A stretch of 57,060 bases of DNA, counting the filler, from Dugesia japonica (lineage: Eukaryota), in assembly GCA_001938525.1 (NCBI GenBank). It is 4 parts of 4 records of this genome, joined end to end, with 100 filler letters (N's around TTAATTAATTAA, not from the genome) between each part and the next. Parts side by side here need not be neighbours in the genome. Positions count along the whole stretch, not along the records: positions 44,505 to 57,060 come from MQRL01591519.1; 3 more parts are not named here. One strand, given 5' to 3'. The notes beneath the pieces were generated by a model. That model was not told the DNA's origin and made no database searches. It saw only the letters and a list, made by a program, of their open reading frames with translations. Shown in pieces: positions 8,367 through 56,577 of the stretch. Position 1 is the stretch's first letter, and every line of letters starts with the position of its first letter. A program made the translations under genes and the position numbers.

Positions 8367-8707
8367 ATAAATAATTCTACCCAAACAGACCAACCCGAGG
8401 GTTTGCTAAAAAACAAAGAAAATTGACCCTTGTGAGTAAATAATCAACCAAGTTTACCCATAAAAAGTAAATTATTGACCTTAATTATTCAAATAATTCG
8501 GTAAGCTATTCAAAAATACGAGCAAGAGTTAAGTAATACATACACATGTGTTTCGCTGTATAAAACCCGATAATATGAAGAACAGTTACGCAATACACAC
8601 TAATGTGTGTCTTTTTTGCATTGGAGAAGTTATGTAATCATTTTTTACACACATTGGGTTTCTGAATGTTTGCCGTTCTGGACTGTCATTTCCGATCTAC
8701 TTTTTAC

Positions 8708-8755
<48 letters not shown>
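8708..8755. repeat. (ATT)n microsatellite
   Basis: Direct reading. Confidence 0.95.
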
Positions 8756-8756
<1 letters not shown>

Positions 8757-8887
8757 TATTTTTTTATTGAAAAATAAAACTAATACCAATAATACTATTA
8801 TTCATATATTATTATTATTATAATTATAATGACTTAATAAACTTAAATAAATAATATATTCATTATATAAACATAAATTACACATAA

Positions 8888-10003
8888 TTATTCATCAATA
8901 ATATTCACAGTATGTTTACGTGATCGTGGCACAATCATTGTGCTGTATGCATCAATAAATTGTCTTTCATCAGTACTTTGTGATTTCCAGCATTTTATCA
9001 GTTTGAGTAAAACTAATTTAGAATTTCGTCTAAATGTAACAGAGCTTAAGAAATATAAAATAAAATTTACACCATTATTGCATGAAGTTAACATTACAAA
9101 CATCGATCCTACACTGAATACAGATACTACAAAATTTTGATCTTTATTATTCTTCCACTCTAATTTTGCTTCTAAAATTGAAAAAACGCATAACGGCATA
9201 GATGTTGCAAGATGGAAAATTGTTACTGGAATTAATAATCGATTGGCAAGATTTGTTTTTTTATTTCCTTGTTTTTTTGAATGGCATGTTTCATCGGTGC
9301 ACTGAGACTTTATAATTGGACTTCCTTTAACTGATTGAGATGTGGAATTCATTTGACAAGCTTTCGTTCGATAAGCTTTAGCGTTTCTAATAACTTTCAG
9401 AATACCCAAATTAAATATGAGAAGTAAAACTGAGGGAACAATGCTATAAATAATGATATCCCAATAGAAAAATCTATGTCTAAAAGCAACATCAGAAGTA
9501 TCACAGAGACAATAATGAGTAGTTGACGGCATTATTTCTAAATGCCATATTAGAGCACTATTTTTAGCAATTAATCCCGAAAACATTAATATCCATACTG
9601 CAACCTTTCTGTAACCCCTCCAAAACAATTTAGATTTGTATGGTGAACAAGCAACAAGAAATCTTTCAAACGTCAACATACATAAAATCCAAGTAGCAAC
9701 ATCGCGAGATGAATAACTAATGAATGTATGAAACTTACACATGCTGTTATTTGTTGTTCGAATCTCAAATTTGAAAATGAATCTTATCCAATACCTTAAA
9801 GGATTGATCCATAACGCTAATGTATCAGCAATCGCAAGAGCTGTAAACACATTTCTCGATTTACCCATTGTTCGAGTGAATCGAATAACTAAAAATGCGA
9901 TGAAATTTCCAAATGTTCCGATTACAATTAGAAGTGAATAAAAACATATAGAAAAATAACGAACGAAATCATTTTTACTTGATACATACAATGAACAGTT
10001 CAT
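8888..10003 (-). CDS. Intronless rhodopsin-like (class A) peptide GPCR, FMRFamide/myosuppressin-receptor-like orphan type
   Basis: 371 aa, seven hydrophobic segments, TM1 GN, TM2 LAIAD, ECL1 Cys (MCK), TM3 LTFERF, TM5 IVP..LL, TM7 NFILY, helix 8 FRR. Confidence 0.93.
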   Translation of the reverse strand: MNCSLYVSSKNDFVRYFSICFYSLLIVIGTFGNFIAFLVIRFTRTMGKSRNVFTALAIADTLALWINPLRYWIRFIFKFEIRTTNNSMCKFHTFISYSSRDVATWILCMLTFERFLVACSPYKSKLFWRGYRKVAVWILMFSGLIAKNSALIWHLEIMPSTTHYCLCDTSDVAFRHRFFYWDIIIYSIVPSVLLLIFNLGILKVIRNAKAYRTKACQMNSTSQSVKGSPIIKSQCTDETCHSKKQGNKKTNLANRLLIPVTIFHLATSMPLCVFSILEAKLEWKNNKDQNFVVSVFSVGSMFVMLTSCNNGVNFILYFLSSVTFRRNSKLVLLKLIKCWKSQSTDERQFIDAYSTMIVPRSRKHTVNIIDE

Positions 10004-10211
10004 TTTTAATATGAAATTTTATGAATTTACTTTTCACTTCTAACTTGATTTTCAATAATGCAATCATCCAAGTAAATTATTGATATCCAATAACATTTGA
10101 AATATAATTTTGTAAATTTTCAACCAATCAAATCTATTTATTTTTATAAGCATTTTTTACTAATTATTCAACTAGAAAAAATGTAAATTATTTTTATTAT
10201 TATTATTATTA

Positions 10212-10466
10212 TTTTACAGTTGCAATTATTGCGAGAATAATTGTTGAACATAACCATTGATCGTTTATCAGAATTCATTTAAAATAAAAGCATCGATCAA
10301 AATTGTTTTTTTATTTGGTGTTTGATAGCAATTCAATATTTTGACTTAATCTTCTCAAGGAATTGACTTTTCTATTCCTGAAGAAGTTTAAGTCGAAATA
10401 TCGAATTGCTATCAAACACTAAATAAAAAAAACAATTTTGATCGAAGCTTTTATTTTAAATGAATT
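10212..10466. mobile_element. Palindromic Penelope-like pLTR element with two inverted hammerhead motifs (copy 1)
   Basis: ~90-bp arms 10272-10362 and 10374-10466 plus a ~55-bp tail; homologous to 42610-42845; flanked by (ATT)n. Confidence 0.75.
10374..10408 (+). ncRNA. Minimal type I hammerhead ribozyme motif (core intact, weak stem II)
   Basis: ATTC-CTGAAGA-A-GTT TAA GTC-GAAA-TA-TC-GAAT. Confidence 0.55.
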
Positions 10467-10949: not shown

Positions 10950-13130
10950 ACTACCTTTCATGCATTTTCTCAATTATTCGATAAGATCCTTCAAATGTGT
11001 CTTGATTTTTATTTCTTGTTTCTACGTTTATGAGTACAACATCGCCCAATTTTTTTCCGCATTGGCCCACATTTATCTGTTAATATCTCTTCAAATAAAT
11101 TGGTAGCTTATAAACTCTTTGTATTCTCTTTAGATGCTGTTCTCACTACTTTGGTCTTCTGACGAATTTTACAACTACGAACTATCTTCTGTATTTGTCT
11201 CCACAAATTCTTTGCAATATATTTGTTTCTCCTCCTGTATAACATAATAATTTGTATATTTCTTATATTGTTTCATGCCGTTTGTCATACGGAATTTTCA
11301 TTTTCTTGAGCTCTATGATCTATTCTAAGAGTAAATCTTCTACCGTACAAGTAATATTTGAAATGCATACAGAAATAATAAACAACCAATAACTCTTTTC
11401 GTGTAATGCAGTATCCATTTTCATTACTCTTCATTTAGTGTGATCCATAGGCAACAACTCTTTCTCTTCCTTCTTTATCTTTCTGTGACAATACTGTTGC
11501 AATTGTATCAAAACTGGTATCCGTATCAAATATAAATTCTTTATTTATGTCCGAAAAACACAATATTCGTGCAGTCATTATAGATCTTTTCAGATCCTCA
11601 AAAGTATCATTTATTTCATCTGTCCATTCTAATTTTTTTTGCTTGGTCCGCTACACAACTGCTCTAATATATTTGACTTTCTTGCGTAGTTTTCTATAAA
11701 CTACCTGCAATAATTACAAATTCCGAAGAAACGTCGTAACTTCTTCACACGGCTAGATTTGCCAAATGTTCTTATTGCTTATATTTTGGACGGATCAGTT
11801 CTAACACCATCCATGATAATTATTTGTCCAAGAAACTTGATTTTGCTTTGAAGAAACTGACAGTTTTCTGGATTAATTCTTAAACCAGCCCTTATTATTT
11901 CCATCAATATATTTTCAATAACTTCATAGTGTTTATCTTTATTGTTCGTTAATATCAAAATTTCATCAAGATAAACCATGGCTCCATTGATACCGCCAAC
12001 CACTTTAGTCTTCATCACCTGAAAGGTCCTTGGTGCTGCCGTGATGCCAAATAATATTCTATTAAAACAATATTGTCCGGGTTTTGTACAAACGCCGTTT
12101 TTTATTGAGATTTTTCTTCAGGTTCTACCTAATAGTACGCATTTTCTAAGTCTATTGAACGGAAATATTTTGCTGCATCTTACTTGTTCAGCCTTTCATC
12201 GACATAAGTATCGAAAAGGCTTGTCCTTTCGTTATTGTATTCAATTATCTGAAATCCAAACATATTCTTATGTCTTTCTTTTCCGTTTTCAAAACACAGA
12301 TCAGTGGGGTATTCCGTGGAGATTTTCATTTCCAGATAATATTTTACTCGAAAAAGTTTCGAATAGATTCTTCAATGTTAGATTTTTAGTTCATTGGTTG
12401 TCTATAAGGTTTTAGATTGATTGGTTCGCAACTTGTGGATATTTTGTGTCTTATCAGATATATGGGTCTTACATCCCGTTTATCTGCCATAAAAGCATCT
12501 TTTTTACTTTCAATTATTTTCATTAACCATTGATCATCTTTAATCTTCAAAATATTTAAAGCTCTTGTCAATCGCTCTCCATTTTTAATTTGTCTCACAA
12601 ATTTCGCTTCGATATTACAAAACCTTTTGCATAAGCTGATATCCAAAAGTTTTCTGCATATCTATTCCTCCTATCAGATCTGGTGTTACTCCTTCAGCAA
12701 CTAAGAAACTAATCTCTTTGTAAACTTTCACAATTATCACTCCAATTTTTACTTTTCCAACAATTTCAAGTGTACCATTATTTGCACAACGCAATCTTTC
12801 ATCACTCATTTCTAAATGCATCTCTGGTAATTTATTTAAACAACTCAAACTGATCACGTTAATTCGAGCTCCTGTATCTAATAGACATTCAACTATATTT
12901 CCTTGAATTAATACCGTAACACTTGATCTGCCTTGCAATTTATGGTACAAAATATTTGTTTTCTTTTCTGCTTCAACTGTTTCAACCCATTCTATGTTTC
13001 TATCATCCAAAAAATTTTCCCTCTTTAGGAACCTGTATACTTTTCTGTACCTTTTCCTATATCATCCCACTTTTCGACTCCTTAAGGATAATTATTAACT
13101 TCATTTAACAATGGATAGCTCCAACCAACT
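10950..13130 (-). pseudogene. Ty3/Gypsy pol (PR-RT-RNase H-partial IN), degraded
   Basis: CLLDTGARINVI (protease), EPINLKPYRQP, VYLDEILI (YLDD variant), FIFDTDTS..IATVLSQ, YCITRKELL, TLRIDH, integrase Zn region SCKIRQK..TDKCGP; PR-RT-RH-IN order. Confidence 0.92.
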
Positions 13131-27180: not shown

Positions 27181-29220
27181 CATTTAAACAATCAAGAAAA
27201 GGGATCATCAATAATTATTATAAATTACGAAATAGATAAAAGATTGAACTTTCAAATGATATGAAATATTGTGAATATTTAAACAAATTGTGCAAACAAA
27301 ATAAAATAATTAAATGAAACTATTAAAAAACGACATTATTTTCGCCCCAACCTAGTACATAATTTTTATTGTCAAAACGATTAATAATTTCGGTTTCATT
27401 AATTGAAATATTGTTGAGAAAATTTTCCATTAAAATTTATTAAATATAGGTTTGTTTCCTAAAATAATATGGAATATTTAAACAAATTTGCTTATAATAT
27501 TTTAATAAGACTTCTTTTTTTCAGCCTTAGTAGATATGAAAATGTTATATAGAAGCATTTGACACTTTCAAATAATGAGTTTTAGTAATGTGGTTAAAGA
27601 TTGGATCACTCGAGGTATAATTTGCGAACGATACAGATATATTTCCTACAATGTTGAATCTATAAATAATACTACCGTATTATAAAAAATATAAAGGGAG
27701 TAAATATACACGTACACACCAGAACAGTTGAGAAGGATTTGGGTCTATTATGTTCGAATTTGGTCAATTTTGGTAATAAATGTCATCTAGTTGGTTGAAA
27801 TTGGCTTGGGGTGGTCAAAACGTTTCTCATTCAGGTTGATTTTGGTTAATTATATCCTCGCAATGGTCGAATTCGGTTGACTTTGATAAAAAATTTGCTC
27901 GGAATTGTCGATTTTGATAAGAATATTCCTCGGAGTGGTCGAATTTGCTCAAATTCGAGGAAAAAGCTAATTTTGTTTAAATATTTTAATTTTTTAAAAG
28001 TAATGAAAATTTTTATGAAAATCCGTGTAAACGAACCAAATTTTACAAATGTTTTGAAAATTTTTATATTGAGATTTTTAGACCAATCGACTCAGGGTGA
28101 CTTAGGATTCATTTCTATCAAGAAAAATCTTTGCGGAAAATAAAAAGTATCTCAAATTTGATCATTAACCTGTCTATTCGATAGAGAATTTTACACTGAT
28201 CATAACTGGCCTAGTTAAAAATAGCCAAATTTTATTGGGGGCTTAGGAAAATTTGATAAACCCGANNNNNNNNNNNNNNNNNNNNNNNNNNNNNNNNNNN
28301 NNNNNNNNNNNNNNNNNNTAGAATTTTTCGCTTATCAAGAAAATATCACATACAATTACTTAATTTTGAACGAGAAAAATCGAAAATCATGGTCAAAAAT
28401 CCCGAGGATGCTTAACAGACAAATAAAAAATTATTTTTAATTTTCATCCAAATTTAATGATTTATATACCATTCGATGCAGAATTTTTCAATGATCATGA
28501 AAATAGGNNNNNNNNNNNNNNNNNNNNNNNNNNNNNNNNNNNNNNNNNNNNTTAATTAATTAANNNNNNNNNNNNNNNNNNNNNNNNNNNNNNNNNNNNN
28601 NNNNNNNGTTCTCCAAGACCTATGACTCCTCCGATGAGTCAAGGTCTTTGTTCAAATCGGCGATGACTCATCATTATGACTAATTTCTTTGTTACAAAAA
28701 ATATGAGTCATACAAATTTTTCATAATCATTATTTAATTTAGCTAATTACTATTTGCAAGAAGTTTATAAGCGACTAATATTTCTTAGTGATCTAGTGCG
28801 CTACTATCTACNNNNNNNNNNNNNNNNNNNNNNNNNNNNNNNNNNNNGAGTGTTCTAACACTCTCAGAGCTATATCATGACAAAACAAGCAGCTTACGTG
28901 TCTTACAACGTGGTATTTTCCATAATTTACGAGGATGTAATAATAATCACGTGTTGCAACGTTCCATAACTGAAACACGTAATTGTTGGCGATGTTGTGT
29001 ACGAGAATGTCGTAATGATATAGATGTGATAAGGGTTTATGGAAAAAGAAAAACAAATTGGAAACTAGTTAATTAATTAAAACATTTGAAAACGTTCAAA
29101 TATTTTTCAATTATTTTTCATAAATATAATTAAATTGGTAATCAAAAAGTCTAAATATTTATTAAAAACTACACAAAATTATCAATTATCAACTATAATC
29201 TATCATCTTGAATATTCGAT

Positions 29221-29901
29221 TTAGGAGACAAAACTAAGATAGGGTTTTTTGAAAAAACATTTCCCAACAGCTATCACACCTACAGCACCTACTAATGGCA
29301 TTAATCCACCAAATAGACTAATTCTAAATCCTAAATGTCTTCTTTCCACATCTACAAAACAAATTTAACAAATTCTATATTTTACCAATAATATTCTCAC
29401 CATCAGCTGTATAATAATGAGCATACAAATATCGGCCAATCAAATACAAGTTACCGGCAATTATCGTGAATTTCTTAATTAAAATCAATCATTTCATAAC
29501 ATCATCAGAGTAATCAATAAAATTATACTGGAAATTCNNNNNNNNNNNNNNNNNNNNNNNNNNNNNNNNNNNNNNNNNNNNNNNNNNNNNNNNNNNNNNN
29601 NNNNNNNNNNNNNNNNGCTATAATATGTTACTAATTTTGATGCGAACGTTGAATACAATTAAATTCATCGCTGGTGCTTGAATACATAGCAGGGCACTAG
29701 TAAATATTTGAAACTATCTAAGCATCACAATTACAAATTAACCTTCACATTATATTTTATACGAGCTTTTGCTACTCTATACATCAAATAGAAGTTCAAC
29801 AAGTATGTTTCAGCAAGTATCATTAATACACCGCCATATCCCATAATGGCAACTTCATTATGAACAATTGAATGAAAATCTTTAGAAATAAAACTTCCCA
29901 T
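29221..29901 (-). CDS. MGST3: Microsomal glutathione S-transferase 3-like (MAPEG), paralog 1; exon 3 partly in gap
   Basis: VAKARIKYNVK|CPAMYS..FNCIQRSHQN...YLIGRYLYA; same exon structure as paralog 2. Confidence 0.88.
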
Positions 29902-32008
29902 CTAAAAATATTTAATTCTATACTTGTGACCAATTCATTTAAAAAGTATTAATTTCTAATTTATACTTTTTAAATAAATCTAATTAAATAGAATTTACTA
30001 AAGATATCTTATTAAATATTTTTTATTGGTTAAATAACATTTAATTAACCTATTATTTATTAATCAATAAATTATTAATTAATTCTATTTACTAAAAGCA
30101 ATATGCGTGACCTCGAAATTTTATTATTGATTATCTTAAACAAACTGTAGGCGCGTGAAACGTATTATACTATTAAATAGATTGAGATCACGTTTTATAA
30201 AAATAAATAACTTATTTTTTAAATGCAAATACATTACAAAACATTATTTTACCTTGAAAAAATACTAAAGTTTTGGAAGTCTTGCATTTATTGGTTATTT
30301 ACTTATTTAATGACTGAATTGTAATATAAATCTTAAAATATTTTTTTAAAAAATGATTTATGTATTTAATAAGAACATTTAAATTAAATCGAATTGTTTT
30401 AATTTCGTTACAANGAAAACTGTTGTTAGAGGGACATTATTGAATAAAAATAGTTTCAAGTTAAACAATAATTGAATATAATTTACTTTAACCCGTAACG
30501 TAAGGTTTTGCAAATCCTTACGAAGTTACTACTGAATTATTTAATTTTCGTCTAAAAGAACATGAATTATTTATCGATTAATTAATATTTCCATAATCTC
30601 TATTTAGTAAATGTCTCGACAGGTATATTAAATTTGATTTGTGTTGANNNNNNNNNCTAATGAAAAGCAATAGTAATATTTATGTGATGTCTAATTATTG
30701 ATTGTAAAGAAATATTACACTTGGATTTGTGTGTATATTTAAGACTGAATTGAATCTAACTTTTCATTTAATGTTTCCATTGTATAAGTTCGTATAATAA
30801 GTCTGATAAATAATTTATGTTAAAATTAATTGAGGTTTATACAAGGAAAATAAATATGGAATTTCAATTTTTCCTATTACAATTATAATTAAATAAAAAT
30901 TCAATTTTCCAAAAAATTTAGGTATTTAGACCCAAATATTGTCATAATAGAGAATGCAAATTTTTTCAACTCGTATGAGTTTGGGAGGATATTCCAAGTG
31001 TTAAAAATCATAATATCTGCTTTCTGTACTTCGTGTTCATACAGTGGTATGTTTCATCACTGTCTATGTTATTGTATTTTAGTAGCTGTGTATGGTGCTC
31101 ACCCATTTACACGATAGTTTATATTATGCTCATGACATTCGATGATGGCTTACCGCATGGTTAGATAATTTTCTAGATTTTATTCTTGCACTGCTTTTAA
31201 ATCTGGTCCTCACTCAACCAGAACGAACTGAAAATAAATTGATAATATTTGCAGCGGAAAATAATAATTTTCTGAAAATTTGCAAGTACTTATAAATAGG
31301 AAATACTGCAAAATTACTTATACATAATTCAATATAATTGCTAAATTTTAACATATAATTCTTATCTTTAACTGCATCTAATTTTATTTTCATAAATCTT
31401 ATTTTCTCTTTAAATAATATGTATTGAATAATAATAAAAATAATAATATCGTAAATAATAATTTTACATTTTAATACTTTTTATAAAAATTATAATAATA
31501 TAATTTTTCTACTTAAATCTGGCGGATAATATAATACTTTATTGTTTATAATAGTGATGATGATTTATTTCGCTCTTCTTTTCTTATTCTTTCTCTTTAT
31601 TCTATTAAAATGTTTCAACTTAATTATTTTTTTAATCCTTTTTTTCATTAATATAATTTTATTTTAATATATGAATACTTTTAATACATTTATATAAACT
31701 ATGAATAAAAATATATAATACTTATTTCGCTTATATTCTACTTTTCGATCTCTTTAATTTATTTAGAAAAATATTAAACAGTTTGTAGTATTGGCTGTAG
31801 ATCTGAAATATAAGGAAATTAATGTATACATACAATCATTAACTTTTCCAGTTTTTAACATACATCAGATTGAAGAATTATTAATTAAAGAAGATACAGA
31901 AGATCAATATAATTTATAATAATAAAATAAATTAACCAAGTAGAATTCAGTAAAATTAATTCAAAAAATATTTCTACTTTAACAAAAAAAAATTGAATAA
32001 ATCAAAAA

Positions 32009-33330: not shown

Positions 33331-34309
33331 GCAATGACAACATCAAAATCCTAATTCAACGATATCATTCCTTTTTTCCTTAATTTGAAATTGTTTTCCA
33401 ATTATTCTTTAAATCGCTATTTAAATAAAATGACAAATTTTTATTTCATTTTAGAAGTCATTCAATTAGCTATTTTATTATTTGATCAAATCAGCGTTTC
33501 ATTAAAAAGTACATAATTGGTTATTTGTGATGGTTACTGCATTTACCGACGTATCAAAACCACATTATTGACAATTGATATTTTAATATTTATCAACGAG
33601 AAATATCATAATATTCAACAATCAATAAATTCAATTAAATAGTAAATCGTTTTATAGCAAATTATTTTCGATTTGAAGCACAATTATTATTTATTATTGA
33701 TAATTATTTTCCATTTAGTTAAAAGGAATTGTTATTCATTTAAAATATTTTGGCAGCTATTATGATAATTTAATTATTCANTAGCATAAGATAACGATAC
33801 CAACGACTTCAAACTGGGATTGAATAAAATTGAAAAAATGAATATATTTTAAAATTTTTTATTAAGAATTAATTTTTTGAAAAATTTTAAATTATTTTAA
33901 TTTCAAAATAAATTAAAAATATTTGTTAATATTTTGTAAAATAAAAATGTATATTAAAATAACTGTAATCATAATAATAATAAATAATAATAATAAAAGA
34001 TAAGACTTCGAATATGGTTACAAACTATAACACTTATTAATAGTATTTTAAACAAAAATAATATTGTTTCTTGGGAGCTACTCTAAAAAAGGTAAAAATA
34101 AGACCTTAATTAAAATTAAATTTTAAAAAATAAAATTAAGATGAATTTAAATAAAATTAATTAATTAAAATATTTCAAAACGTTCAAATATCTTTCAATT
34201 ATTTTTCATAAATTTACTTTATATTGATAATCAATAAATCGAAATATTTATTAAAAACTACACAAAATTATCAATTATCAACTAAAATCTATCATCTTTA
34301 TTATTCGAT

Positions 34310-34988
34310 TTAGGAGACAAAACTAAGATAGGGTTTTTTGAAAAAACATTTCCCAACAGCCATCACACCTACAGCACCTACTAATGGCATTAATCCTCCA
34401 AACAGACTAATTTTGAATCCCAGACCTCTTTTCTTTACATCTACAAAGTAAATTTAACAAATTCTATATTCTACAAAAAATATTCTCACCATCAGCGGTA
34501 TAACCACGAGCATACAAATATCGGCCAATCAAGTACAATTTACCGGATATTATTGCGACTTTCTTAATAAAAATCAATCGTTTAATAACATCTCACAGTA
34601 ATCAATATAATTATACTGGAAATTCCAGACCACAAACTAACAGAAAAGGAATAAAAAATGAAGTATTTTCAAGACTAGAATTAATTTTATACATTACAAA
34701 ATTAACTGTAACTTGTTACTAATTTTGATGAGAACGTTGAATACAATTAAATTCATCACTAGCTTCTGAATACATAGCAGGACACTAGAAATTTATTTGA
34801 ATATTTAACCAACACAATAACGAGTTAACCTTCACATCATATTGTTTACGAGCCTTTGCTACTCTATACATCAAATAAAAATTGAGCAAGTATGTTTCAG
34901 TAAGTATCATCAATACACCGCCATATCCCATAATCGCAACTTCACTATGAATAATTTTATGCAAATCTTTAGAAAAAAAATTTCCCAT
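34310..34988 (-). CDS. MGST3: Microsomal glutathione S-transferase 3-like (MAPEG), paralog 2
   Basis: Exons 34830-34988, 34720-34784, 34617-34674, 34490-34562, 34310-34440; introns 45, 45, 54, 49 nt; FNCIQRSHQNYLE and GRYLYARGY motifs. Confidence 0.92.
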
Positions 34989-36189
34989 CTACAAAGTTTA
35001 CCGTTATACTATTAATTTCATTATTCATATATAAAATATTAGTTTCAGATTTTATTTCACTTTCTTAATAGATATATTTAAATTCCTCTTACTAAATAAA
35101 TTTTTTTAAATCGATTAAATAAAAAATATTTAATTAAATTGATCTAATTAGTTAAATAATATTTAACGTAAGCNCGCAAATGAAATCGAATTACGTGACC
35201 TCGAAGTTTAATTACAAAATGAATTGATTATTAAAAACAAATCGTAAATTGGGTGAATTATGTAATTTAATTATAAATAATATTTAATATTTCTGACTGT
35301 GTGTGATTTAAAAATTTAAAAAATAAACCTTTTTAAAATAAAAAATTTTAAAATTGTCATATTGGATAAGCAAATCAATTTTTTAAAAGAAAACAATTAA
35401 TAAGACTAATTGTTTCATCGAAACCATAAGTACTTTCAAAACATACAATAACTAGTCAGAATCCTAATTAAAAACTACTAGAGTTAATTAATTTAAAAAT
35501 TATAGTTTTTCAAAAATTATCAAAGAATATTTAAAGATATGAAATTAACAATATGAAAATAATAATAATTAATAAAGGGCTATTCAATTTTTTAAAGCAA
35601 CTAGAAAGTAACCGCTTATAAATTCCAAAAAATTAAAGTTCTTAATAAATAACTTTGTTTNNNNNNNNNNNNNNNNNNNNNNNNNNNNNNNNNNNNNNAA
35701 ACATTATCTTGTTAAGGGATAATAGAAAGGTACCAGATTTTGGATAAAACACGTCACACACAAGATAGCCCCGTTTGGACCACGTACTTTTGAAAGCGCA
35801 ACATACAAATCCCTATCTTTTTCAAGTTCTTTGAAATTAATTGGAGAATTATTATTAATAATATACATACAAAGTATTTTTGTCCTTAAGGGATTTATTG
35901 TCGTCTTTTAATTTTGAAAATTTTAATTTTTTGACAATGCTGTGCTTTCAAAAGTAGACCGTCAAGCCGAGGGCCAAATTGTTTGAAGATTTTTCGTAAC
36001 GCATATACAATACATTTATATACAAAATTAATATTTTATAAATAATTTTGTAAATAAAAATATGTAACATTTGTTTTTAAAATTTTCACTGAATGTAATT
36101 TATGCAATTTTACTTTTTAAATAATTTAGCCAAATTTTCCGATTTACATATTTGAATAATCGCGTAAATTTTATTTCGATTTTTAAAAA

Positions 36190-39969: not shown

Positions 39970-40800
39970 ATTTAATGTATTAAGTGACTGTATTGATTAG
40001 CTTGAACGATTAGATTAAGATAAATGGAAGAATTGAATACAATGTATAAGTCAAGTACGTAAATGAATTGAGTGTATAGGTTTAATAAATGTATCGGATG
40101 CATTGAATGTAGTAGGTTTATTGACTGTATTGGGTTAATGAATGTATTGGGTTTAATGATTCGTATTGCTCTAGATATAAGGTATACAAGTGTTGTCAAA
40201 TTTTGCTTTGTAATATTGAACAATTTCTAAAAGATTTTACTTGTATAAACGAATAACAAATTTTGGAAATTTGAAAAGATTACATTTATTGGAAATAATG
40301 AATTTAATTACTAATGAAGTTAATTAAAATCTATTGTAGGTCCATTTAAAAAATTATGACGAAATAAAACGTGTTTATATAAAATGATTACACACATGTT
40401 TTATAATTAATTTGATGTGATTAAACATACATAAAATTCGTTAACATTAGTATATTAATCAACAAATGTTATCCTTAATGAAATAAATCAAAAAGCAAGT
40501 ACTTCACATAAGTTGTTTTCTAGTAATATTAAATAATGGATGATTCCAAACAGTATTAATGTTCAAATTAGATTCTCTCAGTCAAAGTTAATATCTAATC
40601 AGGTCTATTTTTTTATTGGTTTTGACTCCTTTGGGCGATAATTTACTCTTCATTGGTCTTTTCTCTCACTTTTTAGTTTTCTTACTGTTTACTATTCCTC
40701 AGTGATCAATGTTGTGTATACCGTTTTTGTGCACTTGTGTTGAGTTATCAATACTGTGCTCACTGTACACTGAACACTAGCCCTCAGTTATCAAAGCTTT
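39970..40800 (+). repeat. Diverged direct copy of the interior (~7560-8300) of the TIR element
   Basis: Collinear shared blocks such as AATGTAGTAGGTTTATTGA, CTAGATATAAG.TATACAAGTGTT and GGATGATTCC.AACAGTATT. Confidence 0.85.
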
Positions 40801-41093
40801 GATCATTGTGCACTGGATTTCATTCATCAATACTCAATGGTTTTAATCCACGTTTTGCTGATCTTCCCTCTTCATTTATGGTAAATGTACTGTTTGAATT
40901 ATTTTAAAACTTCATAAATTTTGCATTAATTATTTTACTTTGATTGAATAAAATTTCTATTTCAGGATTTAATTAATTAATTTGAAAGGTTAATAATGCT
41001 TTTATGAATAATTGGTTAGAATTCTAATGATTAAATAAATTTATATGTTACAAATTGATAATCAATGGGTAAATTAATTGATAAGAGTGTCTA

Positions 41094-41520
41094 TTTTCAA
41101 AGGCTTTTCCTATATTAATGGAAATATGTGTATAATTAACCGGTTATTTGGGTTTATTGGTTGTAAAGTATAGATTAAGGGTTAAGTTTAGACCTGACTA
41201 TATGGAATAATTAATGAAAAGATTAAACCATTAACTGTGTGATCAATATGTAAATGATGATAACGAGTATTGTGTATGTTAAAATTTGATGATAGCTATA
41301 GTTGTGTACTATGACTTAAATTTTATGATAGCGAATATTATTCTATATATGATTAATAGGTGAATAATGCATATAAGTTGGAATGAACTTAAATTTTCAA
41401 AGGATTTTATTATGTTAAGGTTAAAAATATGTGAATAAGTAACCGCTTATTTAGTTTATTGGTTATAAAAGATAGGTTAAGTTTAGTTTAAAACTGACTG
41501 TATGGAATAATTGATTAAAT
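41094..41520. repeat. Diverged ~125-bp direct repeat at 300-bp spacing
   Basis: TTTTCAAAGG...GTTTATTGGTT...CTGACT.TATGGAATAATT at 41094-41220 and 41394-41520. Confidence 0.7.
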
Positions 41521-42727
41521 CCAGCGACGTGCTAAGTGTGGTTGCAAGGGGTGCACAGGATGGCAGGCTAAAAAAGTTTGTTGAAGAAATACTAGTTGTC
41601 CAATCTTTATTATGTTCAGGTTGTTTTCAACCTACTGCTTATTATTTAAATAGGTAAAATTTGTAAGTATATTATATACTTATGTATGTAAATAAATACT
41701 ACAAAAAAGACGCCATTCGTAACATTGTTAAAATATAAAATATTAAACCTATTAAAACGATGGTTAATATTATTATACGTATTTATAGCATAATATTTAA
41801 TTTTATGGTCACACATATTTATAAAATATTAAACTTTATGCGTGGTAAGTTTCATTGAAATTTTTGAGTTAAAAAGCTTTTAAGTAACGTTTGTTAGATG
41901 TCAGAGAAAAGAAGAAAGCTATCCAATGCAACATATAGAAAACGAAAACTTAAAAAAGAAGAAAAATCAAGAAAGGAATCACTTCAATTGCGAAATTTTT
42001 TCAATCAGTTCATTCCTCAAGCAATGCAACGCTTTTTAAAACTGATGACAAGTTGCCACATTTTCCATGTAAATAATATGAAGATGCAATCAATGCGAAT
42101 GAAAGAGAACAAAGCAGTTTATCTTCTGCACCAGAGAAAATATCGTTACAATTGGAGTTTGAGGTATCAACACAAATACATACAACGGAAGATGCGGAAC
42201 CAGATTCTACCTCTATTAGAAATGAAAGTAAAGATTTATCAAATATTACTGAATTAGATTTAAATGATCCAAGTCTATGGCCAAAAATAATTGAAAATAG
42301 AATGTCAATAATAGAAATAGAACCAAAACAAGTGAAAAATTTTAACTTTCCGGTAAATAATAAAAGATTTTTGGGGTGACTTATTACATAAAAAATTAAG
42401 TAACGGAGAAAAAATAAATAGAGATTGACTAGTTTTTTTTACATCCAAAAATTCAGTATATTGTTTTATTGTAAAATATTTGCAAACATTGATAACGCCT
42501 TGAAAATGGGTATTGTGATTGTAAACACTTATCACGAACTAAATGAAGACATGAAAAAACTAAAGCTCATATAAACAATTTTAAATTTGTTATTGATTTA
42601 AATCAAATATTTTACAATTGCAATTATTGCAAGAATAATTGTTGGACATAACCATTGATCGTTTTACAGAATTCATTTAAAATAAAAGCTTCGATCAAAA
42701 TTTTTGATTTTTTTATTGAAACTTGAT

Positions 42728-49139: not shown

Positions 49140-49631
49140 ATAATATGTTTAAATAGAACCAAGTATTGCACGTTCTATGAAAACCACGTTGATAAAATAG
49201 ATTTTGAGTAATAAATATCAGTCACATTACAATGTTTTGATAATAATGTTTAATTGATTACAATATTAATAATAATAATAATAATAATAATTGATTACAA
49301 TAATAATAATAATAATAATGATTGATTACAATGTTTTGTGAATAAATTATTGAAATCCTTCTCTTTATTTGCCTCTTGATACAAATTGTCAATAACAATA
49401 AAATCACCTGGTTTCAATCTCTTGCTCCAATTTTTTTCAAATACGTTTAAATTCTTTATTTTAATATTATGAAGTTCTTATTGACTCAGCGCATTCTCTT
49501 TATCTGCACTATTATACAAGTATATCTTGTTATATTTAGACTTGAATAAATTTGTTTCATACAAACAAAGTTTCTCAATTCCCACTAGGTCCAACAATTT
49601 GGTAAACTGAATCATTTCTTAATTTATCCAT
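49140..49631 (-). pseudogene. Polinton packaging ATPase, copy B
   Basis: YQIVGPSG (Walker A); SKRLKPGDFIVIDNLYQEANKEK, nearly identical to copy A; interrupted by an (AAT)n expansion at ~49245-49330. Confidence 0.88.
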
Positions 49632-49745
49632 CTTGACTTTAAATTTATAGATATTGTAGTACATTGTTTATATTTGTTTTATCGAATCAATTAAATTAAT
49701 TCTAAAAAATCCCTAATGGACCTCCTAAAATTCATTTCATTAATT

Positions 49746-49966
49746 ATGATAACCGATATTAGTTACAGAGGTCGAAAGAAGTAACAAATACAATGAGTTT
49801 TCCTATTCGCAAGCCATGCCAATTCAAAGTCAACAGCAACAAGTATACAATTATATTTTTCAGGACGGGGAAGTTTATTTTCATGGGGTTTAAGAGACCT
49901 TTAGAACCACAAGATTTGATCCCCTATCATATTAAAAATAAATGATTACAATAGCTAACAATTGTC
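49746..49966 (+). pseudogene. TBP-like gene, copy B (3' truncated)
   Basis: MITDISYRG..MSFPIRKPCQF..NKYTIIFFRTGKFIFMGFKRPLE...LQ*LTIV is collinear with copy A. Confidence 0.75.
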
Positions 49967-49969
49967 GTT

Positions 49970-51340
49970 TATATGGGAGTTGCAAGATATTTGTATAAAT
50001 TAGCAATATAATCAACTGTTGGTTAAAACCAGAGTACCACCCAAATAGAATACAAAAGAATATATTGCCAAACCATTGCATTCCTCCTAAACATTTATCT
50101 ACAAAATTACCCATTGACCTTTTAAAATGATCTACGTGTAATAGTGATTCAAAATTCACATCGTCTCCAGTACTCCCTTTTACTACTTTGACAACCATTA
50201 TTGATATTATTTTTTCTCTTAGTATTGGAAAAAGCATTTGTTTTCTCACTTTTTAAAAATATCATTGATCGTTTAAATACCATGATTTTCCATGTTATCA
50301 ATCCTCTCTATTTCGGTTGTTCTACTAAGTTCTATCATTTTCATCATAAGTGGAGTTGGTGCTGTCTTTCTATCTGATACCGTTATCCGTGCTTCCTCAG
50401 TTATTTTATACATAGGGTCAAGAATGTTGCTGTATTTTTCAATTACCTTTAGTTGATAGTGCTTATCGGCTAATATTCTTGTTATAGGAAGCAAGAATAC
50501 TTTTTCTCCTTTATAAATTACTGGTAATTCATTAGTACCCTGTTCATGATTTGTGAGAGTAACTGTTACAGGTTTTCATTTCAAACTTACTAAGGTTTTT
50601 TCCATTATTCTTCCAAATGTTCCTCTTTCCTCAAGCAAGAGTGGTGCAATCAAATCAAGATTTGTGATTACTATTGCCATTTTTGTTCTCAACAATTTTC
50701 GGTTCATTTTACAGTCCCTTATGACGGTTTTCTGATATATTCTGTCTACCTGTCTTAATATTTCATGATATAGGTAATCAATCTTATTCTTTTTCTACTT
50801 ATTAATTTTTCAATTAGTCTGGCATCTTTAATTTATGTTGTTGATAAATATAGATCATTGTAGTTAGTTACCTTTACTGCCATACGCCATTTGCCTGTTC
50901 ANNNNNNNNNNNNNNNNNNNNNNNNNNNNNNNNNNNNNNNNNNNNNNNNNNNNNNNNNNNNNNNNNNNNNNNNNCACCGTTCTTAATCTTGTGAGTGTAC
51001 ATTCAAATGGGTTTATTTTGTATGGGATCATGGATTCTTCAGTATCGCAACTTGTATCTTTTAAGTTACAAAATGCATGTGTCATCATTTTTCCTGTGGC
51101 TGCAGCAAAGGTTGCTTTTATCTTTTTTAATTACACATGGTACTGTCTTCTTACTAAAATATTAGTTCTCATTACTCCCAATACTTTATAACTNNNNNNN
51201 NNNNAATATCCACCTGATGTGGACCATCCTCTTAACATCCACTTTCTGTTTCACTCTTGCTCCAATCTGTGCTTTTAACTCATATCCATGTACCTTTAAA
51301 ATTTTTGTTTAGAATGCATTTTCACAATCATTTGCATCGA
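49970..51340 (-). pseudogene. Class III (chuvirus/herpes gB-like) envelope glycoprotein of an LTR element
   Basis: CNLKDTSC..., DYLYHEI..QV..IY...RDC..R.LL.T.MAI, TFGRI, KPVTV.L..TNELPVIYKGEKVFLLPITRIL, HGI.., RKQMLFP..RE, then membrane-proximal/TM WFGNIFFCILFGWY. Confidence 0.75.
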
Positions 51341-52299
51341 TTATGTGATTCGATTATGTGATTTGATTCAACATTATTCTATTTGTTACATTATGATTCG
51401 ATTATGTAATTTGAATTTTATATATATAATGTGATTTGATGGTAATTGACTTTTATGTATAACAATTTATGAATATTGTATTTTTAGTTTTTATTGGAAC
51501 AAGAATATTTACAAATCAATTTTACCTTATGAATTTTATCAAATTTTTCAAATAATTTCTTAAATAAAATCAATAAGAATTTCTCAAACAAAACCAATTT
51601 TAAGTAAACAGGAAATTCTTAAATTTGCTTTATGTTAATTTTAGAATTAATTTTCTAAATGAAAATAAGTGGAAATTAATTTTTTTGTAAATTAATCAAT
51701 TATATGAATTTTTTCTAAATGAATTTATTTTATAAGTGGAATTTTATTTATTTTGTAAATTTTTATTTATTTTATTTCGAAAAATTTATTTATTTTGTGA
51801 ATTTTTATTTATTTTATTTGGAAAAATATTGTGTGTAAATATTGTGTGAAAGTAGCTGGTAATAATTCAGTATAAATAGAGAGCTAAAACTCATTATTTT
51901 AACGCTTTTATTAAAAGCAAAAAAAGTTTAAACCTTCTGAGGTTTACAACTAAAGCTTAAAATAATAACTAGAAATTTCTCTTTTTAAAAAAGTACTTGT
52001 AAAAGCATAACAAAAGACACTTGTAAAGATATTGTTATCTAATTATAATTTTAAAAATTAATTTCTTTAGTTTCATTAAATAAGGAATACTATATAGTTT
52101 ATTTATATTATATCGATTTATTTATAATAAACATTAAGTCTTATAAGGAAATTTTTATAACAGTAATATATTGGGATTAATACAGTCTAAAATCAATTAA
52201 TTAAAACTCACGCATTATTGATTTATTTTGGCAATTAATACCCAAAGTATCTCAACAATGAGTTTCATATCTTCGAATATCATTATAGCTCTATTTTGA

Positions 52300-54500
52300 G
52301 TTATTATACAGTCAAATAAGTCAGCATGTACCAACTTGATTAGACTTCTTATAATCCTGCTGATACCTGTTTGTCGTAGCTTTGTGAAATATTATTTAAA
52401 TGTTCAGCTTGAACCTATCCTGGTATTACACCATNTGATTTTGATCTGCCTCTTGATCTTTAGTAATCTGATTCTTTGTCTTTAAATATTTTTTTTCTTT
52501 TCTTAATTTATCTTTTCGATTTTCGTTTGCTGTATTTGACTTCTCTCGTATTTTGTTATCTTGTTCATTTGCTCTGTCTTCTTTAGCTATAACTGCTAGT
52601 GCTATTAGGTTTAGAATTTCTTCCATTGATTGTTGTTAACCATTAGTTATTGTTTATGGTACATGTTTCATTATTGTTGCACTTATGATATTAGTATTAC
52701 CTAGAATATTTCCATATTCCATTAGAGCTTTATTTTTATTAAGTTCTGTATTGTAAAATGACAATTGTATCATATCTTCTGCTTGTAGCAATATTGGCCA
52801 ATCTCTTTTCACTGTTTTCAATAATTTATTTGTTTTTGCACATGCCTACATTGTTAGTGCTAATGCTGTCAAACAACAGTCATCTTGTCTCACTGTAACT
52901 TTGACATTTAGAGGCTCTTGTCAGTTGTCATTTTTCTTCACATAATTACTATACTTTTGAAATATTTCATATATTGCATCAAGATTCTCTCATATTTCTA
53001 TCTTACTTCAATTCTTTGCTAGAATGATTATTATTGGTTTGATTTTTTGAAAGTTGATAGGGTATTCATTGATATATTTCAAGTATTGCAACAATCTAAG
53101 TTCGTTGGTGCTTTCCTTTTTTAGTTCTTATCTGACATTTTCTATCAATATTTCTTGTTTTCTTTCGTCCATCGCATATAAATCCACTTCTACTGGTTCA
53201 TACACATTTATCTCATATTCATTTCTTTCTTGCTGTCTTTCCATTATTTGCTGGTAATGTATTTTTATATCTTCTAACTCAATTCTCATATTTTCATTAG
53301 CTTCATTGCTTACTAATTCAATAGCATTTTTTGTTTCTGGGCGGAATGATACATCTTTTTTCAGAATACTTCTAGAGTCGTTTGGTTTGTTTCTGCTTAC
53401 TCTTGCTTTATGTCCGCATTTATTACAATTATTAATACAATATTTTATTTGCTCTTTGTTGTTTAATTTATCTCTTCCTTCATTTAAGAAATAAAGGCTT
53501 AGACTCCTTCTATTGTCATATCTTTTTGGACTGAATCCTCTACTATTTTGATTATATACTCTTGCTAAGCTTGCATTTCTGTCTTAATTTCTAGCTGGGC
53601 TAAGCTTCCTGTTGTAGTTATTATAATTTCTTCCAGGACTTGAATTTTGGTTGTTATTGTTATAGCTCCTTTCAGGGCTTGAATTTATATTATAATCGTT
53701 GTAATTTCTTCCGGGACTTGAATTTCTATCATTTTTTAGATAATAATCTGATTTAAATTTTAAATCTTGGTTTTTCTATTATCGTGAGGGTTTTGATATG
53801 CGTTCCTCATTTTGCTCCATGATAATTCCTCTTTGCTTGATTCTATTGCATATTTTTGCAATTAGAGCTTTTCAAATGTATGTATGTGTACCATTCAGAA
53901 ATTGAAATTCTATGATATGACCAATATTACCTCTTTTTCCAAAAACTTATTCTGCTAATCTTTCTAGCTTACTTGTGACTATTATTTTTTTCTTCAAAGT
54001 TTCTTTTAATTCCTTACACTTATCTGGTTTGATACTTATATAATATAAGTATTTTTTAACATTTTAATGCATATTCTTTTAAGTAGAGTGGCAATCGCTT
54101 AATCAGTTCTGCTTCTATCCATCCGCAAGATGTGGCACAAATGTGGATATGTTCAAAATATGCGTCAATTTCCTCAGGTTTCCCTGCATAAAATTTTATG
54201 GGCAATGCATTCAATGTAGCGCGTTATACGAATCAACCGTCTATTTGATCATTAATTGGTAGATTTCTAAATGGTATATTATTTTNATTATTTTCTGTCA
54301 TTTTTTGAATATCACCTTTTTGCAATTTGTATACTACTTCTTCTTCAATGATAACTTCTTCTTTTTCTTTCAACCTGAAAACTAGTCAAACAATTTCTTT
54401 GGTTTCGTTTCAACCGGTAAACTCTGAATCACTTTTCAAACTCTATTATTTAAAGGAAACTGATTTTATATTATCAGAACTTAGGTAAGAGTTTGCGACA
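52300..54500 (-). pseudogene. gag (capsid region, SP-R repeats, decayed CCHC) with long in-frame unknown extension
   Basis: KFYAGKPEEIDAYFEHIHICATSCGW; NSSPGRNYN repeats; CINNCNKCGHKAR; ~300 further codons in frame with scattered stops. Confidence 0.65.
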
Positions 54501-54668
54501 GGAATTCAATCCAAATATAATACAAAACTTAAGATAATCAAATTAATAAACTTTGATAAAATACCGTAGGAAGATTTCTCCAATATTTGATATCAAATTG
54601 ACTAATACACGGTAGATTTTAATAAAAGTCTGAAAACCTGCTTGATTTTAATATTTTTTACTATTTTG

Positions 54669-54688
54669 ATTCTCGGTTCGCGGCACCA
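54669..54688 (-). promoter_or_regulatory. tRNA primer-binding site (Phe- or His-like)
   Basis: TGGTGCCGCGAACCGAGAAT, 4 nt after the LTR end ...CTCAACA. Confidence 0.8.
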
Positions 54689-54692
54689 AATT

Positions 54693-55470
54693 TGTTGAGT
54701 ATTTTAATGTATGTTGATACAATATTATATAAATATAATATCTTAAGCAAAGTATAAATAAGGGGATATATAGTGCCCTTATATAAACAAACTAAAACAC
54801 ACTTTTATAAAAGATAATATTTTTTATGTATAACAAATATTTCTGCACTTAGAATCTTATTAGCAATATGTCATATTTAACAGAAAATGCCGCTCTGAGA
54901 GATTGGATTTTCTAGTATATTTACAAGTCTAAATAAAACTAAAAAATAATCAGTATTTATACTGATTTCATTCATACTTCCCAACACCAAGTCAACCAGT
55001 AAAATAACACAAAATAAAATTTTATTGACTTTTACTTATAGTCATTTATTTTTTTNAATGAAATTTTTCATGTTTGTTAAGTTTTTGAAAACTTTCGATC
55101 AATTTATTAAATATTTACACAATAACTAAATTATTTCAAAACTAATTTCAAAATAAAATAGAATCAATTCAAAAATGTGCAATTAAACTAAATTATTTCA
55201 AACCAATTTCAAAATGTAAAAATAAAAATAAATATACAAATTTATGAAATATTTCAATCAATGATAAATATACGCCATTTATGAAATGTTTTAATCAATT
55301 GTTTATTAATTTTCCACTATTTTCTAATCAATGTTTTGATTTTTCTGTTGTATATTGATGCTGATTGACTATTAGATTGGAATGATTATTGATTATGTAT
55401 ATATGTATGTGCTATTGTTTATGTGTGCTTGTTATGTATCTTAGTAGTGTTCGGTTTCCAGATCCCAACA
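54693..55470 (-). mobile_element. 5' LTR (TGTTG...CAACA); alternative 5' boundary at 54986
   Basis: TGTTGGGA at 55470 exactly where pPolB homology stops, and again at 54986; TATATAA and ATTAAA on the minus strand before the PBS. Confidence 0.65.
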
Positions 55471-56577
55471 CACGGAACCTGTTGAAAGAAATCCGCCAAT
55501 AGATATACATCCAGCTGCAGATACATCATCATATAGTCTAAAAGATTCTTACAGCCGGTTATTGTCCTCATATCTAATTCTTTTTGGTAATCTTGCTCAT
55601 TAACTTCTTCCAATTTTAATGGCACTGACGTTGTTTCAACCAGAACTTGCAAACTGATTGCATAGTTATGAAGAAATATTCCCTTTGACATCTTTATTCT
55701 GCTATCTTTAAATTCATTTGTTGTCAAAGGTATCTCTTTTAAGGATTTGACTGCTGCGTCTATTGATAAATTAATAAATTGGTATGAGTAATGAATTTGC
55801 TTTCTTATTTTCTTCAAATGAGCTATCAAACATAGGAATTTTTCGGATGTTGTTTGTATGCAAGATATGCTCCAATTTTGACNTTTATTCAATCCATACT
55901 TCAAAATATGATGTAAGTCATATTCTCTGAGATTATGGAATACTACCGGCAACTTTTTATATATTCTTCTAATCAAGCTGCCTTTATTTCAAGCTGGACC
56001 AATATATTTCCCTGTTAAATGGTAATGGTCACGAGCTGGTTTTATTAATGATTTTTAACACAAAATAAAATTGGTAGAGGTAATGATATGTCTTTTTGTT
56101 GCGAACTGAACTACAATAAGCTTCTTTTTTAGTTGATTGAGAATACGGGTACACTATATTAATAGCGATTTCTTCCATTGTCTTTAAAAAATCAAATATA
56201 CATTCATTCCCAATGAACTTACTATATTTGGTCTCGTTAGTATGGTTGTTTACTAACAACANTCCAGCTGAAAAAGGTTAATGTTTCTTGAAATGCTTTT
56301 CATCTGGTGACTAAAAATCAGCGTATATTACGAAAAGACGTGTCATTGTTTTAGAGTAATCAGTAAACTCTAAATTCTTATCAGATGGCATATTGTACAT
56401 TGTCATTTCAGTTTGAATTCTTTTGCAAATTGGTAGAAGTTTTTCAAAAGCAGATTTATTTCTGAAATTATGTAGACAATTTTTGCCACAAATAATTCGG
56501 ATTCGAACATCATGATTGTTAAGCAAATCTTCAATCAGTAATTCATTTTGCAAATCATGATTTATATTTTTAGACAT
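55471..56577 (-). pseudogene. Polinton pPolB of the endonuclease-VII-insert type, fragment
   Basis: Zn finger CGKNCLHNF; ExoI FVIYADF*S; RDHYHLTGKYIGPA (EndoVII-like); ExoII PVVFHNLREYD; KGIF; ExoIII YLQLDVYLLADFF. Confidence 0.9.

What the first reader, a model, noticed from the sequence alone, without database searches (positions are those of the whole stretch)
49970..55470. LTR element with a chuvirus/gB-like envelope and no recognisable pol
Seen: LTR, PBS, gag, a ~1-kb AT-rich spacer, then a glycoprotein with ELPVxY...FLxPxTRIL and a C-terminal TM region, all on one strand; I see no PR/RT/IN motif in between. Known: class III fusogens related to chuvirus G and herpes gB have been captured by LTR retrotransposons in insects and nematodes. 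Inference: an enveloped invertebrate retroelement in this host, either pol-deleted or a non-autonomous gag-env helper.
Basis: partly seen in the sequence, partly recalled or inferred. Interest (0 to 1): 0.7.

Follow-up and report, generated by a model that had tools for sequence, protein, structure and literature searches.

The report
Truncated enveloped gypsy element, env-before-pol
This is a broken, cut-short copy of an abundant retrovirus-like jumping gene, likely of a planarian flatworm, whose envelope gene sits before rather than after the replication enzymes, so the enzymes are simply lost from this copy and the design is already published.

Summary
The LTR (55470-54693, minus strand), primer-binding motif, gag and chuvirus/gB-type glycoprotein remnant (Pfam PF24664, E 6e-17) are real. 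The pol-less reading is wrong for the family. In 18 of 20 sister env copies with enough flank, pol domains follow env, and a two-LTR sister of 13,498 bp runs gag, ubiquitin-like, Bcl-2-like, env, PR, RT, RNase H, IN, then accessory ORFs. The window copy is decayed. It breaks off inside the env transmembrane codons at 50035, where it joins a Polinton-like TBP gene. The layout is published: GAG-ENV-POL gB-type errantiviruses of flatworms (PMC13524379) and the planarian Burro polyprotein with SUMO-like, BCL2-like and env domains before protease (PMC6431247). This family is a compact, non-giant relative. The Bcl-2 call stays weak (below Pfam cut-off, fold unresolved). The scan found the same kind before in other genomes (e1-8146890, e1-8072000). 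New member of a known kind; low interest.

The parts
54693..55470 (-). 5' LTR, 778 bp, TG...CA ends; diverged, and about 90 bp shorter near its 3' end than several sisters
   Evidence: 63-86% matches to sister LTR regions; same terminal motifs
54671..54688 (-). Primer-binding-site motif, TGG-led, 4 nt after the LTR; cognate tRNA not found
   Evidence: tRNA searches 45/52, 46, 68, 69 negative
53395..54382 (-). gag remnant (capsid-like region, N/R-rich repeats, degenerate CCHC knuckle at about 53439-53395); stops, frameshifts and deletions
   Evidence: 53-73% aa identity to sister ORFs; sisters hit PF03732 and PF00098 above cut-off
52657..53139 (-). Helical domain followed by a ubiquitin/SUMO-like domain (about 52930-52680); 5 stops
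   Evidence: 70% identity to sister L081; Atlas first hit ubiquitin family, 0.92; weak PDB UBL hit, E 0.76
52258..52355 (-). First ~32 codons of the Bcl-2-like domain; the rest is missing in this copy
   Evidence: 73% identity; family-level Bcl-2 evidence
51345..52257 (-). Secondary insertion of another repeat family with an LTR-like TGTTG start; replaces about 0.65 kb (Bcl-2-like C-half, env signal peptide, env N-terminus).
50035..51344 (-). env remnant, chuvirus/gB-type fusion glycoprotein; internal deletion, stops, frameshifts, two N runs; ends inside the transmembrane codons
   Evidence: (PF24664 E 6.4e-17 and 1.1e-4)
49335..50034 (+). Flank, not part of the element: Polinton-like repeat with a TBP-like gene cut at the junction
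   Evidence: sister ORF PF00352 E 6.6e-11; neighbours Pox_A32 ATPase
55471..55988 (-). Flank, not part of the element: decayed protein-primed polB-like frame into which the LTR is inserted
   Evidence: PF03175 E 9e-4, below cut-off

Best explanation
This stretch is a decayed, 3'-truncated copy of a multi-copy, roughly 13.5-kb Ty3/gypsy LTR retrotransposon whose chuvirus/gB-type envelope gene lies between gag and pol, likely inside one long polyprotein of the planarian Burro design. Shown: in sister copies the order is LTR, PBS, gag (CCHC), helical domain, ubiquitin-like domain, Bcl-2-like segment, hydrophobic signal, env, TM, PR, RT, RNase H, IN, a second signal with a weak FN3-like hit, accessory ORFs, LTR. 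Inferred: one ribosome pass would make the whole chain. The internal signal would send env into the ER lumen, the TM would return PR-RT-IN to the cytosol, and signal peptidase plus the element's protease would cut the chain. The cut signal would leave Gag-UBL-Bcl-2 anchored on the membrane, where particles could bud with env and spread between cells. Also inferred: this copy inserted into a Polinton-like element, decayed, took a second insertion, and lost pol and its 3' LTR by a deletion. It cannot encode a working product.
For: Pol domains downstream of env in 18 of 20 sister env loci with at least 400 bp of 3' flank (24 fetched, 4 too short; two of the 18 are one duplicated place, so 17 of 19 distinct). 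Pfam above cut-off in natural sister ORFs for Retrotrans_gag, zf-CCHC, PF24664, aspartyl protease, RVT_1, RT_RNaseH, Integrase_H2C2 and rve. One ORF holds env, TM and PR together (L088). A two-LTR copy of 13,498 bp with a 4-bp target duplication and LTRs identical at 779 of 791 compared columns. 18 of 19 adjacent domain pairs share one stop-free frame in at least one copy; the remaining pair, RNase H to IN, does so in L097. The same order (gag, SUMO-like, BCL2, env, PR, dUTPase-like, RT) in one ORF is described for Burro (PMC6431247 section 7), and GAG-ENV-POL with gB-type env for Platyhelminthes (PMC13524379).
Against: No single copy read here is open from end to end, so the single polyprotein is pieced together from many copies; a programmed frameshift or readthrough somewhere is not excluded. 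Some junctions rest on one locus only (gag CA to CCHC; IN core to IN C-terminus). The Bcl-2 call is below Pfam's cut-off (19.2 against 31.4 bits), PDB sequence hits have E of 0.05 or more, and both fold models were low-confidence with no significant structural match. No RT tree was built. Only 40 of 1604 env candidates were scored, the best matches first. The two junctions in the window copy were not checked against reads, so a mis-assembly is possible.
Confidence: 0.88

Rival explanations
1. The window copy belongs to a propagated non-autonomous gag-env helper subfamily that borrows pol in trans.
For: No pol in the window copy. Internally deleted sisters exist, and 2 of 20 testable env loci show no pol domain downstream.
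Against: The window copy has no 3' LTR and ends mid-codon-run in an unrelated gene. Deletions differ from copy to copy; the only shared one is a duplicated contig pair at about 100% identity. Both pol-less exceptions continue past the window's breakpoint. Gag and env here are full of stops.
Confidence: 0.03
2. The family reading holds, but the window's truncation and 'spacer' are assembly mis-joins in a repeat-rich, fragmented draft rather than real rearrangements.
For: The assembly has 648,594 contigs; all three joined pieces are high-copy repeats; DNA runs hold only 36-60% of the sampled words (7 runs).
Against: Both junctions lie inside one contig with no N gap at them. The insertion starts exactly at its family's own 5' terminus. 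Polinton-like DNA lies on both sides of the element, as a nested insertion followed by deletion would leave.
Confidence: 0.07
3. It is a BEL/Pao element with a captured chuvirus glycoprotein (mosquito type), or a chuvirus endogenous fragment lying next to an unrelated gag.
For: The env family PF24664 is shared with chuvirus-type glycoproteins; BEL/Pao carriers are reported (PMC13524379 passages citing Dezordi 2020).
Against: Gag, RT-RNase H and IN hit gypsy-type Pfam families (PF03732, PF17917, PF17919, PF17921), and no BEL-type family appeared among the ORFs scanned. Env is collinear and in frame with its neighbours in many copies.
Confidence: 0.02

Closest known systems
GAG-ENV-POL HSV/gB-type errantiviruses of Platyhelminthes, e.g. 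Smed_errantivirus_1-6 (Chary and Hayashi, PMC13524379; outline, section 5 part 1 of 2, passages and supplement rows seen)
   Same: Ty3/gypsy element, gB/chuvirus-type env, env before pol, multi-copy; the listed intervals for Smed_errantivirus_1-4 are about 14.5-15 kb. The one env row seen resembles this env by eye.
   Different: No sequence comparison or tree was run, so orthology is untested. The main text has no 'polyprotein', 'Bcl' or 'Burro'. Its Smed rows list no tRNA type; here a PBS motif and two LTRs were located. Copies read here are all decayed.
Burro / GYPSM1 giant gypsy elements of planarians (Arkhipova and Yushenova, PMC6431247, section 7 read in full; Grohme 2018 and Jurka 2007 known only through it)
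   Same: Gag with CCHC, then SUMO-like (PF11976), BCL2-like, env with mononegavirus-type glycoprotein hits, then PR-RT-RH-IN, in frame. Decaying Burro fragments in a further dugesiid genome are already mentioned there.
   Different: 13.5 kb against more than 30 kb; roughly 2,800-3,000 codons from gag to the post-IN domain against 4,873-5,140 aa; one CCHC found against two or three; no MATH, BIR or ankyrin hit between gag and env in the ORFs scanned; a second signal-led FN3-like domain and variable 3' ORFs, some with a RING finger.
Mosquito BEL/Pao elements with Chuviridae-like glycoprotein (Dezordi 2020, seen only as cited in PMC13524379)
   Same: Same glycoprotein family.
   Different: Different retrotransposon superfamily and domain set; here gypsy-type gag and pol.

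Membership tests
Ty3/gypsy LTR retrotransposons | Paired TG...CA LTRs with a short target-site duplication | tested here: met
   Sister on G000:C611380: two LTRs, 98.5% identical over 791 columns, 4-bp duplication. The window copy keeps the 5' LTR only.
Ty3/gypsy LTR retrotransposons | PBS complementary to a host tRNA 3' end | tested here: inconclusive
   Conserved TGG-led motif 4 nt after the LTR; no matching tRNA gene found.
Ty3/gypsy LTR retrotransposons | Retrotrans_gag with CCHC knuckle; pol order PR-RT-RH-IN | tested here: met
   Pfam hits above cut-off in sister ORFs, in that order.
Ty3/gypsy LTR retrotransposons | RT groups with Ty3/gypsy in a tree | not tested
GAG-ENV-POL gB-type errantivirus | gB/chuvirus-type env by sequence family | tested here: met
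   PF24664: window E 6.4e-17; sisters 1.4e-54, 1.1e-34, 1.5e-24.
GAG-ENV-POL gB-type errantivirus | env located between gag and pol | tested here: met
   18 of 20 testable env loci have pol downstream; none has RT, RH or IN upstream of the env C-terminus within the fetched flank; the whole order is seen in L081/L091.
GAG-ENV-POL gB-type errantivirus | Class III fusogen fold and cysteine-bridge type | not tested
Burro | gag, env and pol in one reading frame | tested here: inconclusive
   Every adjacent junction is open in at least one natural copy, but no copy is open throughout.
Burro | SUMO/ubiquitin-like domain after gag | tested here: met
   Atlas first hit ubiquitin family (PF00240 82%, PF11976 32% of members), score 0.92, 158 shared features, recognition 2774; PDB UBL hit E 0.76; no Pfam hit.
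Burro | BCL2-like domain before env | tested here: inconclusive
   PF00452 E 0.0018 and 0.0026, below cut-off; 60 of 60 shown and 54 of 54 PDB sequence hits are Bcl-2 family, all weak; folds unresolved; Atlas blank.
Burro | Giant size (more than 25-30 kb) with MATH, BIR and ankyrin cargo | tested here: not met
   One complete copy is 13,498 bp; no such Pfam hits in the gag-to-env ORFs scanned.
Non-autonomous gag-env helper | Independent two-LTR copies sharing one pol deletion | tested here: not met
   None among the 24 env loci and 15 copies mapped; breakpoints differ.
BEL/Pao with chuvirus glycoprotein | BEL-type gag, protease and integrase families | tested here: not met
   Only gypsy-type families were hit.

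The most novel reading that the evidence does not exclude
The family is the minimal form of the Burro design: an infectious, cell-to-cell retroelement whose single chain threads the membrane several times like a flavivirus polyprotein. Env's signal peptide doubles as the tail anchor of a virus-encoded Bcl-2 with a rewritten BH1 groove (INKNK in place of the NWGR motif), which keeps the producing stem cell alive, and a second FN3-like surface protein after integrase serves for attachment.
Probability: 0.25. Interest if true: 0.6.

Novelty: new member of a known kind. Interest (0 to 1): 0.25.

Why it matters
As filed, the finding would have been a pol-less enveloped element, and that is not the case. 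What remains is one more, very abundant family of flatworm-type gag-env-pol elements. Its use is comparative: a 13.5-kb member that keeps only the ubiquitin-like and Bcl-2-like cargo shows which parts of the giant Burro polyprotein are likely the core. A different anti-apoptotic cargo (RING-BIR) of Burro1 is reported to protect stem cells (seen second-hand in PMC13465017), so the Bcl-2-like domain is the part worth testing. It is also a warning for scans: in these hosts 'no pol between gag and env' is the expected layout.

Tried and rejected
Primer tRNA: the RF00005 search returned 13 matches, 12 loci were scanned and gave Gly, Gln, Ile, Ser and Ala or nothing; three exact patterns found nothing. 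Protein databases: UBL+Bcl-2 region, no hit among longer proteins; env C-terminus+PR, none; env ectodomain, one unnamed hit P0006, 48-50% identical to the window env in two blocks; the HMMER search of 1.84 billion representatives gave one repetitive, evidently spurious hit. Bcl-2 fold: two AlphaFold models (mean pLDDT 48.5 and 56.4, pTM 0.34); Foldseek ranked Bcl-2-family chains first but at E 0.12 and 0.44 with TM about 0.25; VIA-align gave only long-helix matches (best Z 5.9). None of this supports or excludes the fold. The UBL+helical profile found no UBL in the PDB. The dUTPase-like segment after PR is a by-eye resemblance; Pfam did not hit dUTPase. Expression: no RNA holder listed for the window stretch. 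RNA reads laid on a sister's coding region were few: 174, 8 and 3 reads in three runs, 133 of the 174 under 90% alike; this shows at most low transcription from various copies. The window junctions remain unchecked against reads. The 3' half of the element was sought elsewhere in the window and not found. Grohme 2018 is not held; it and its supplement may already list this family type. Four literature searches showed no description of this particular 13.5-kb family.
Full report
Observation. The element lies on the minus strand. The LTR runs 55470-54693 with TG...CA ends. A TGG-led PBS motif follows 4 nt later and is conserved in the 12 distinct contexts printed; its tRNA was not found. The env remnant, read with X at stops, hits Pfam PF24664 (Monjiviricetes fusion glycoprotein) at E 6.4e-17, 61 bits against a cut-off of 27. 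No PR, RT or IN lies between gag and env, and there is no second LTR in the window.

The family. DNA searches of the own genome gave 1070, 1604 and 1739 first-look candidates for the leader, env and middle region; 40 were scored each time, mostly 73-89% identical. Several contigs carry all three parts in line. In them env does not end the element. Natural ORFs continue from the env transmembrane segment into an aspartyl protease (L088: PF24664 E 1.4e-54 and PF13975 E 2.6e-10 in one frame), then RT, RNase H and integrase, all above Pfam cut-off. Of 24 sister env loci fetched, 4 had under 400 bp of 3' flank and were dropped; 18 of the other 20 have a pol domain downstream. Two of the 18 are one duplicated place, giving 17 of 19. 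The two exceptions still run on into the env-PR linker. These are the best-scoring copies, not a random sample.

A complete copy. G000:C611380 holds both LTRs: 13,498 bp, a 4-bp target duplication, and LTRs identical at 779 of 791 compared columns. That insertion is much younger than the window copy, which is about 67-84% identical to it. It also has stops and frameshifts. Its order is LTR, PBS, gag, helical domain, ubiquitin-like domain, Bcl-2-like segment, hydrophobic signal, env, TM, PR, RT, RNase H, IN, a second hydrophobic signal with a weak FN3-like hit (E 0.054), further ORFs, LTR. With probes cut from single copies, 18 of 19 adjacent domain pairs share one stop-free frame in at least one locus, and the missing pair does so in L097. 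One polyprotein is therefore inferred, not seen whole.

What happened to the window copy. The 'spacer' 52257-51345 is a different repeat (1299 candidates) that starts at its own family terminus. Sisters have about 0.53-0.68 kb of coding DNA there: most of the Bcl-2-like segment, the signal and the env N-terminus. Homology ends at 50035, inside the TM codons. Beyond lies a high-copy Polinton-like repeat (3620 candidates) cut within a TBP-like gene, whose sisters also carry an A32-type ATPase and an integrase-like ORF. The 5' flank is a polB-like remnant (weak). The simplest history, inferred: insertion into a Polinton-like element, decay, a second insertion with deletion, and a deletion that removed pol, the accessory ORFs and the 3' LTR. 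The junctions were not checked against reads.

The cargo. The ubiquitin-like call rests on an Atlas first hit to a ubiquitin cluster (0.92; PF00240 in 82% and PF11976 in 32% of members) and a weak PDB hit; Pfam and a profile search missed it. The Bcl-2 call is weaker. PF00452 scores E 0.0018 and 0.0026, below cut-off. All 60 shown and all 54 PDB sequence hits are Bcl-2 family, at E 0.05 or worse, aligning the BH1 and BH2 positions; these chains are largely redundant. The copy L081 reads INKNK where BFL-1 reads INWGR, and WITQEGGW at BH2. Two fold models were low-confidence and gave no significant structural match. The position of the segment, between a SUMO-like domain and env, is where Burro has its BCL2-like motif, which raises the odds.

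Mechanism. Shown: domain order, gypsy-type enzymes, paired LTRs, high copy number. From established knowledge of retroelements and membrane polyproteins (recalled, not tested): tRNA-primed reverse transcription, integration, and an internal signal plus stop-transfer segment that would put env in the ER lumen and leave Gag and Pol in the cytosol. Inferred: the cut signal anchors Gag-UBL-Bcl-2 on the membrane; particles bud with env; the Bcl-2-like domain may delay death of the producing cell. RNA reads on a sister's coding region were sparse (174, 8 and 3 in three runs), so activity is not shown.

Comparison with what is known. PMC13524379 (outline, section 5 part 1 of 2, passages, supplement rows) reports that flatworm, nematode and bryozoan errantiviruses carry only gB-type env, arranged GAG-ENV-POL, and lists nine flatworm elements. 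PMC6431247 (section 7 in full) describes Burro as gag, SUMO-like, BCL2-like, env and PR-dUTPase-RT-RH-IN in one ORF, and calls it the first in-frame env between gag and pol. PMC13465017 (passages) reports second-hand that Burro1's RING-BIR cargo protects stem cells. The family here works like Burro but fails its giant-size and cargo test, so I file it as a compact flatworm-type GAG-ENV-POL errantivirus, not as Burro. The host is likely a planarian, inferred from this architecture. No RT tree was built. Grohme 2018 could not be read and may already list such elements. Earlier notes of this scan reached the same reading in other genomes (e1-8146890, e1-8072000) and noted the post-integrase surface protein in this one (e1-9041064); I had reached my reading before opening them, and they are not independent evidence.

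Verdict. Observation partly confirmed; interpretation partly supported; new member of a known kind; interest 0.25. The boldest reading still open, a minimal infectious element with its own membrane-anchored Bcl-2 and a second surface protein, has probability about 0.25 and would deserve 0.6.

Noticed in passing
window 49335-50034; L133:1085-1579, L135:818-1351: A high-copy Polinton-like repeat (3620 first-look candidates) carries a TATA-binding-protein-like gene (PF00352, E 6.6e-11) next to an A32-type ATPase and an integrase-like ORF.
   Followed up: partly
L091:4130-4732; L104:4664-5188: Integrase runs in frame into a second hydrophobic signal and a weak FN3/Ig-like domain; in L092 and L105 a Thr-rich stretch follows. 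Possibly an attachment protein.
   Followed up: partly
L095:1785-2843; L105:2991-3392; L091:5233-7471: The 3' accessory region differs between copies: some carry a C3HC4 RING finger (E 1e-7 to 3e-7), others ORFs with no Pfam hit; 66-80% identity between types.
   Followed up: partly
window 51345-52257; L061, L110-L118: The inserted repeat has a fixed LTR-like TGTTG start much like this family's own LTR start, but no PBS was seen beside the copies fetched; its type is undetermined.
   Followed up: partly
window 11300-12300: A second, divergent RT/RNase H remnant (32-45% aa identity to this family) on the minus strand.
   Followed up: no
window 7560-10316 and 39971-42714; 29130-29908 and 34219-34995: Two pairs of long diverged direct repeats (81-90% identity), the second pair 5.09 kb apart and possibly the LTRs of another element.
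   Followed up: no
L027 and L028 (G000:C466121, C400007); L112 and L113: Contig pairs that are nearly or fully identical over their overlap, so copy counts in this assembly are somewhat inflated.
   Followed up: partly
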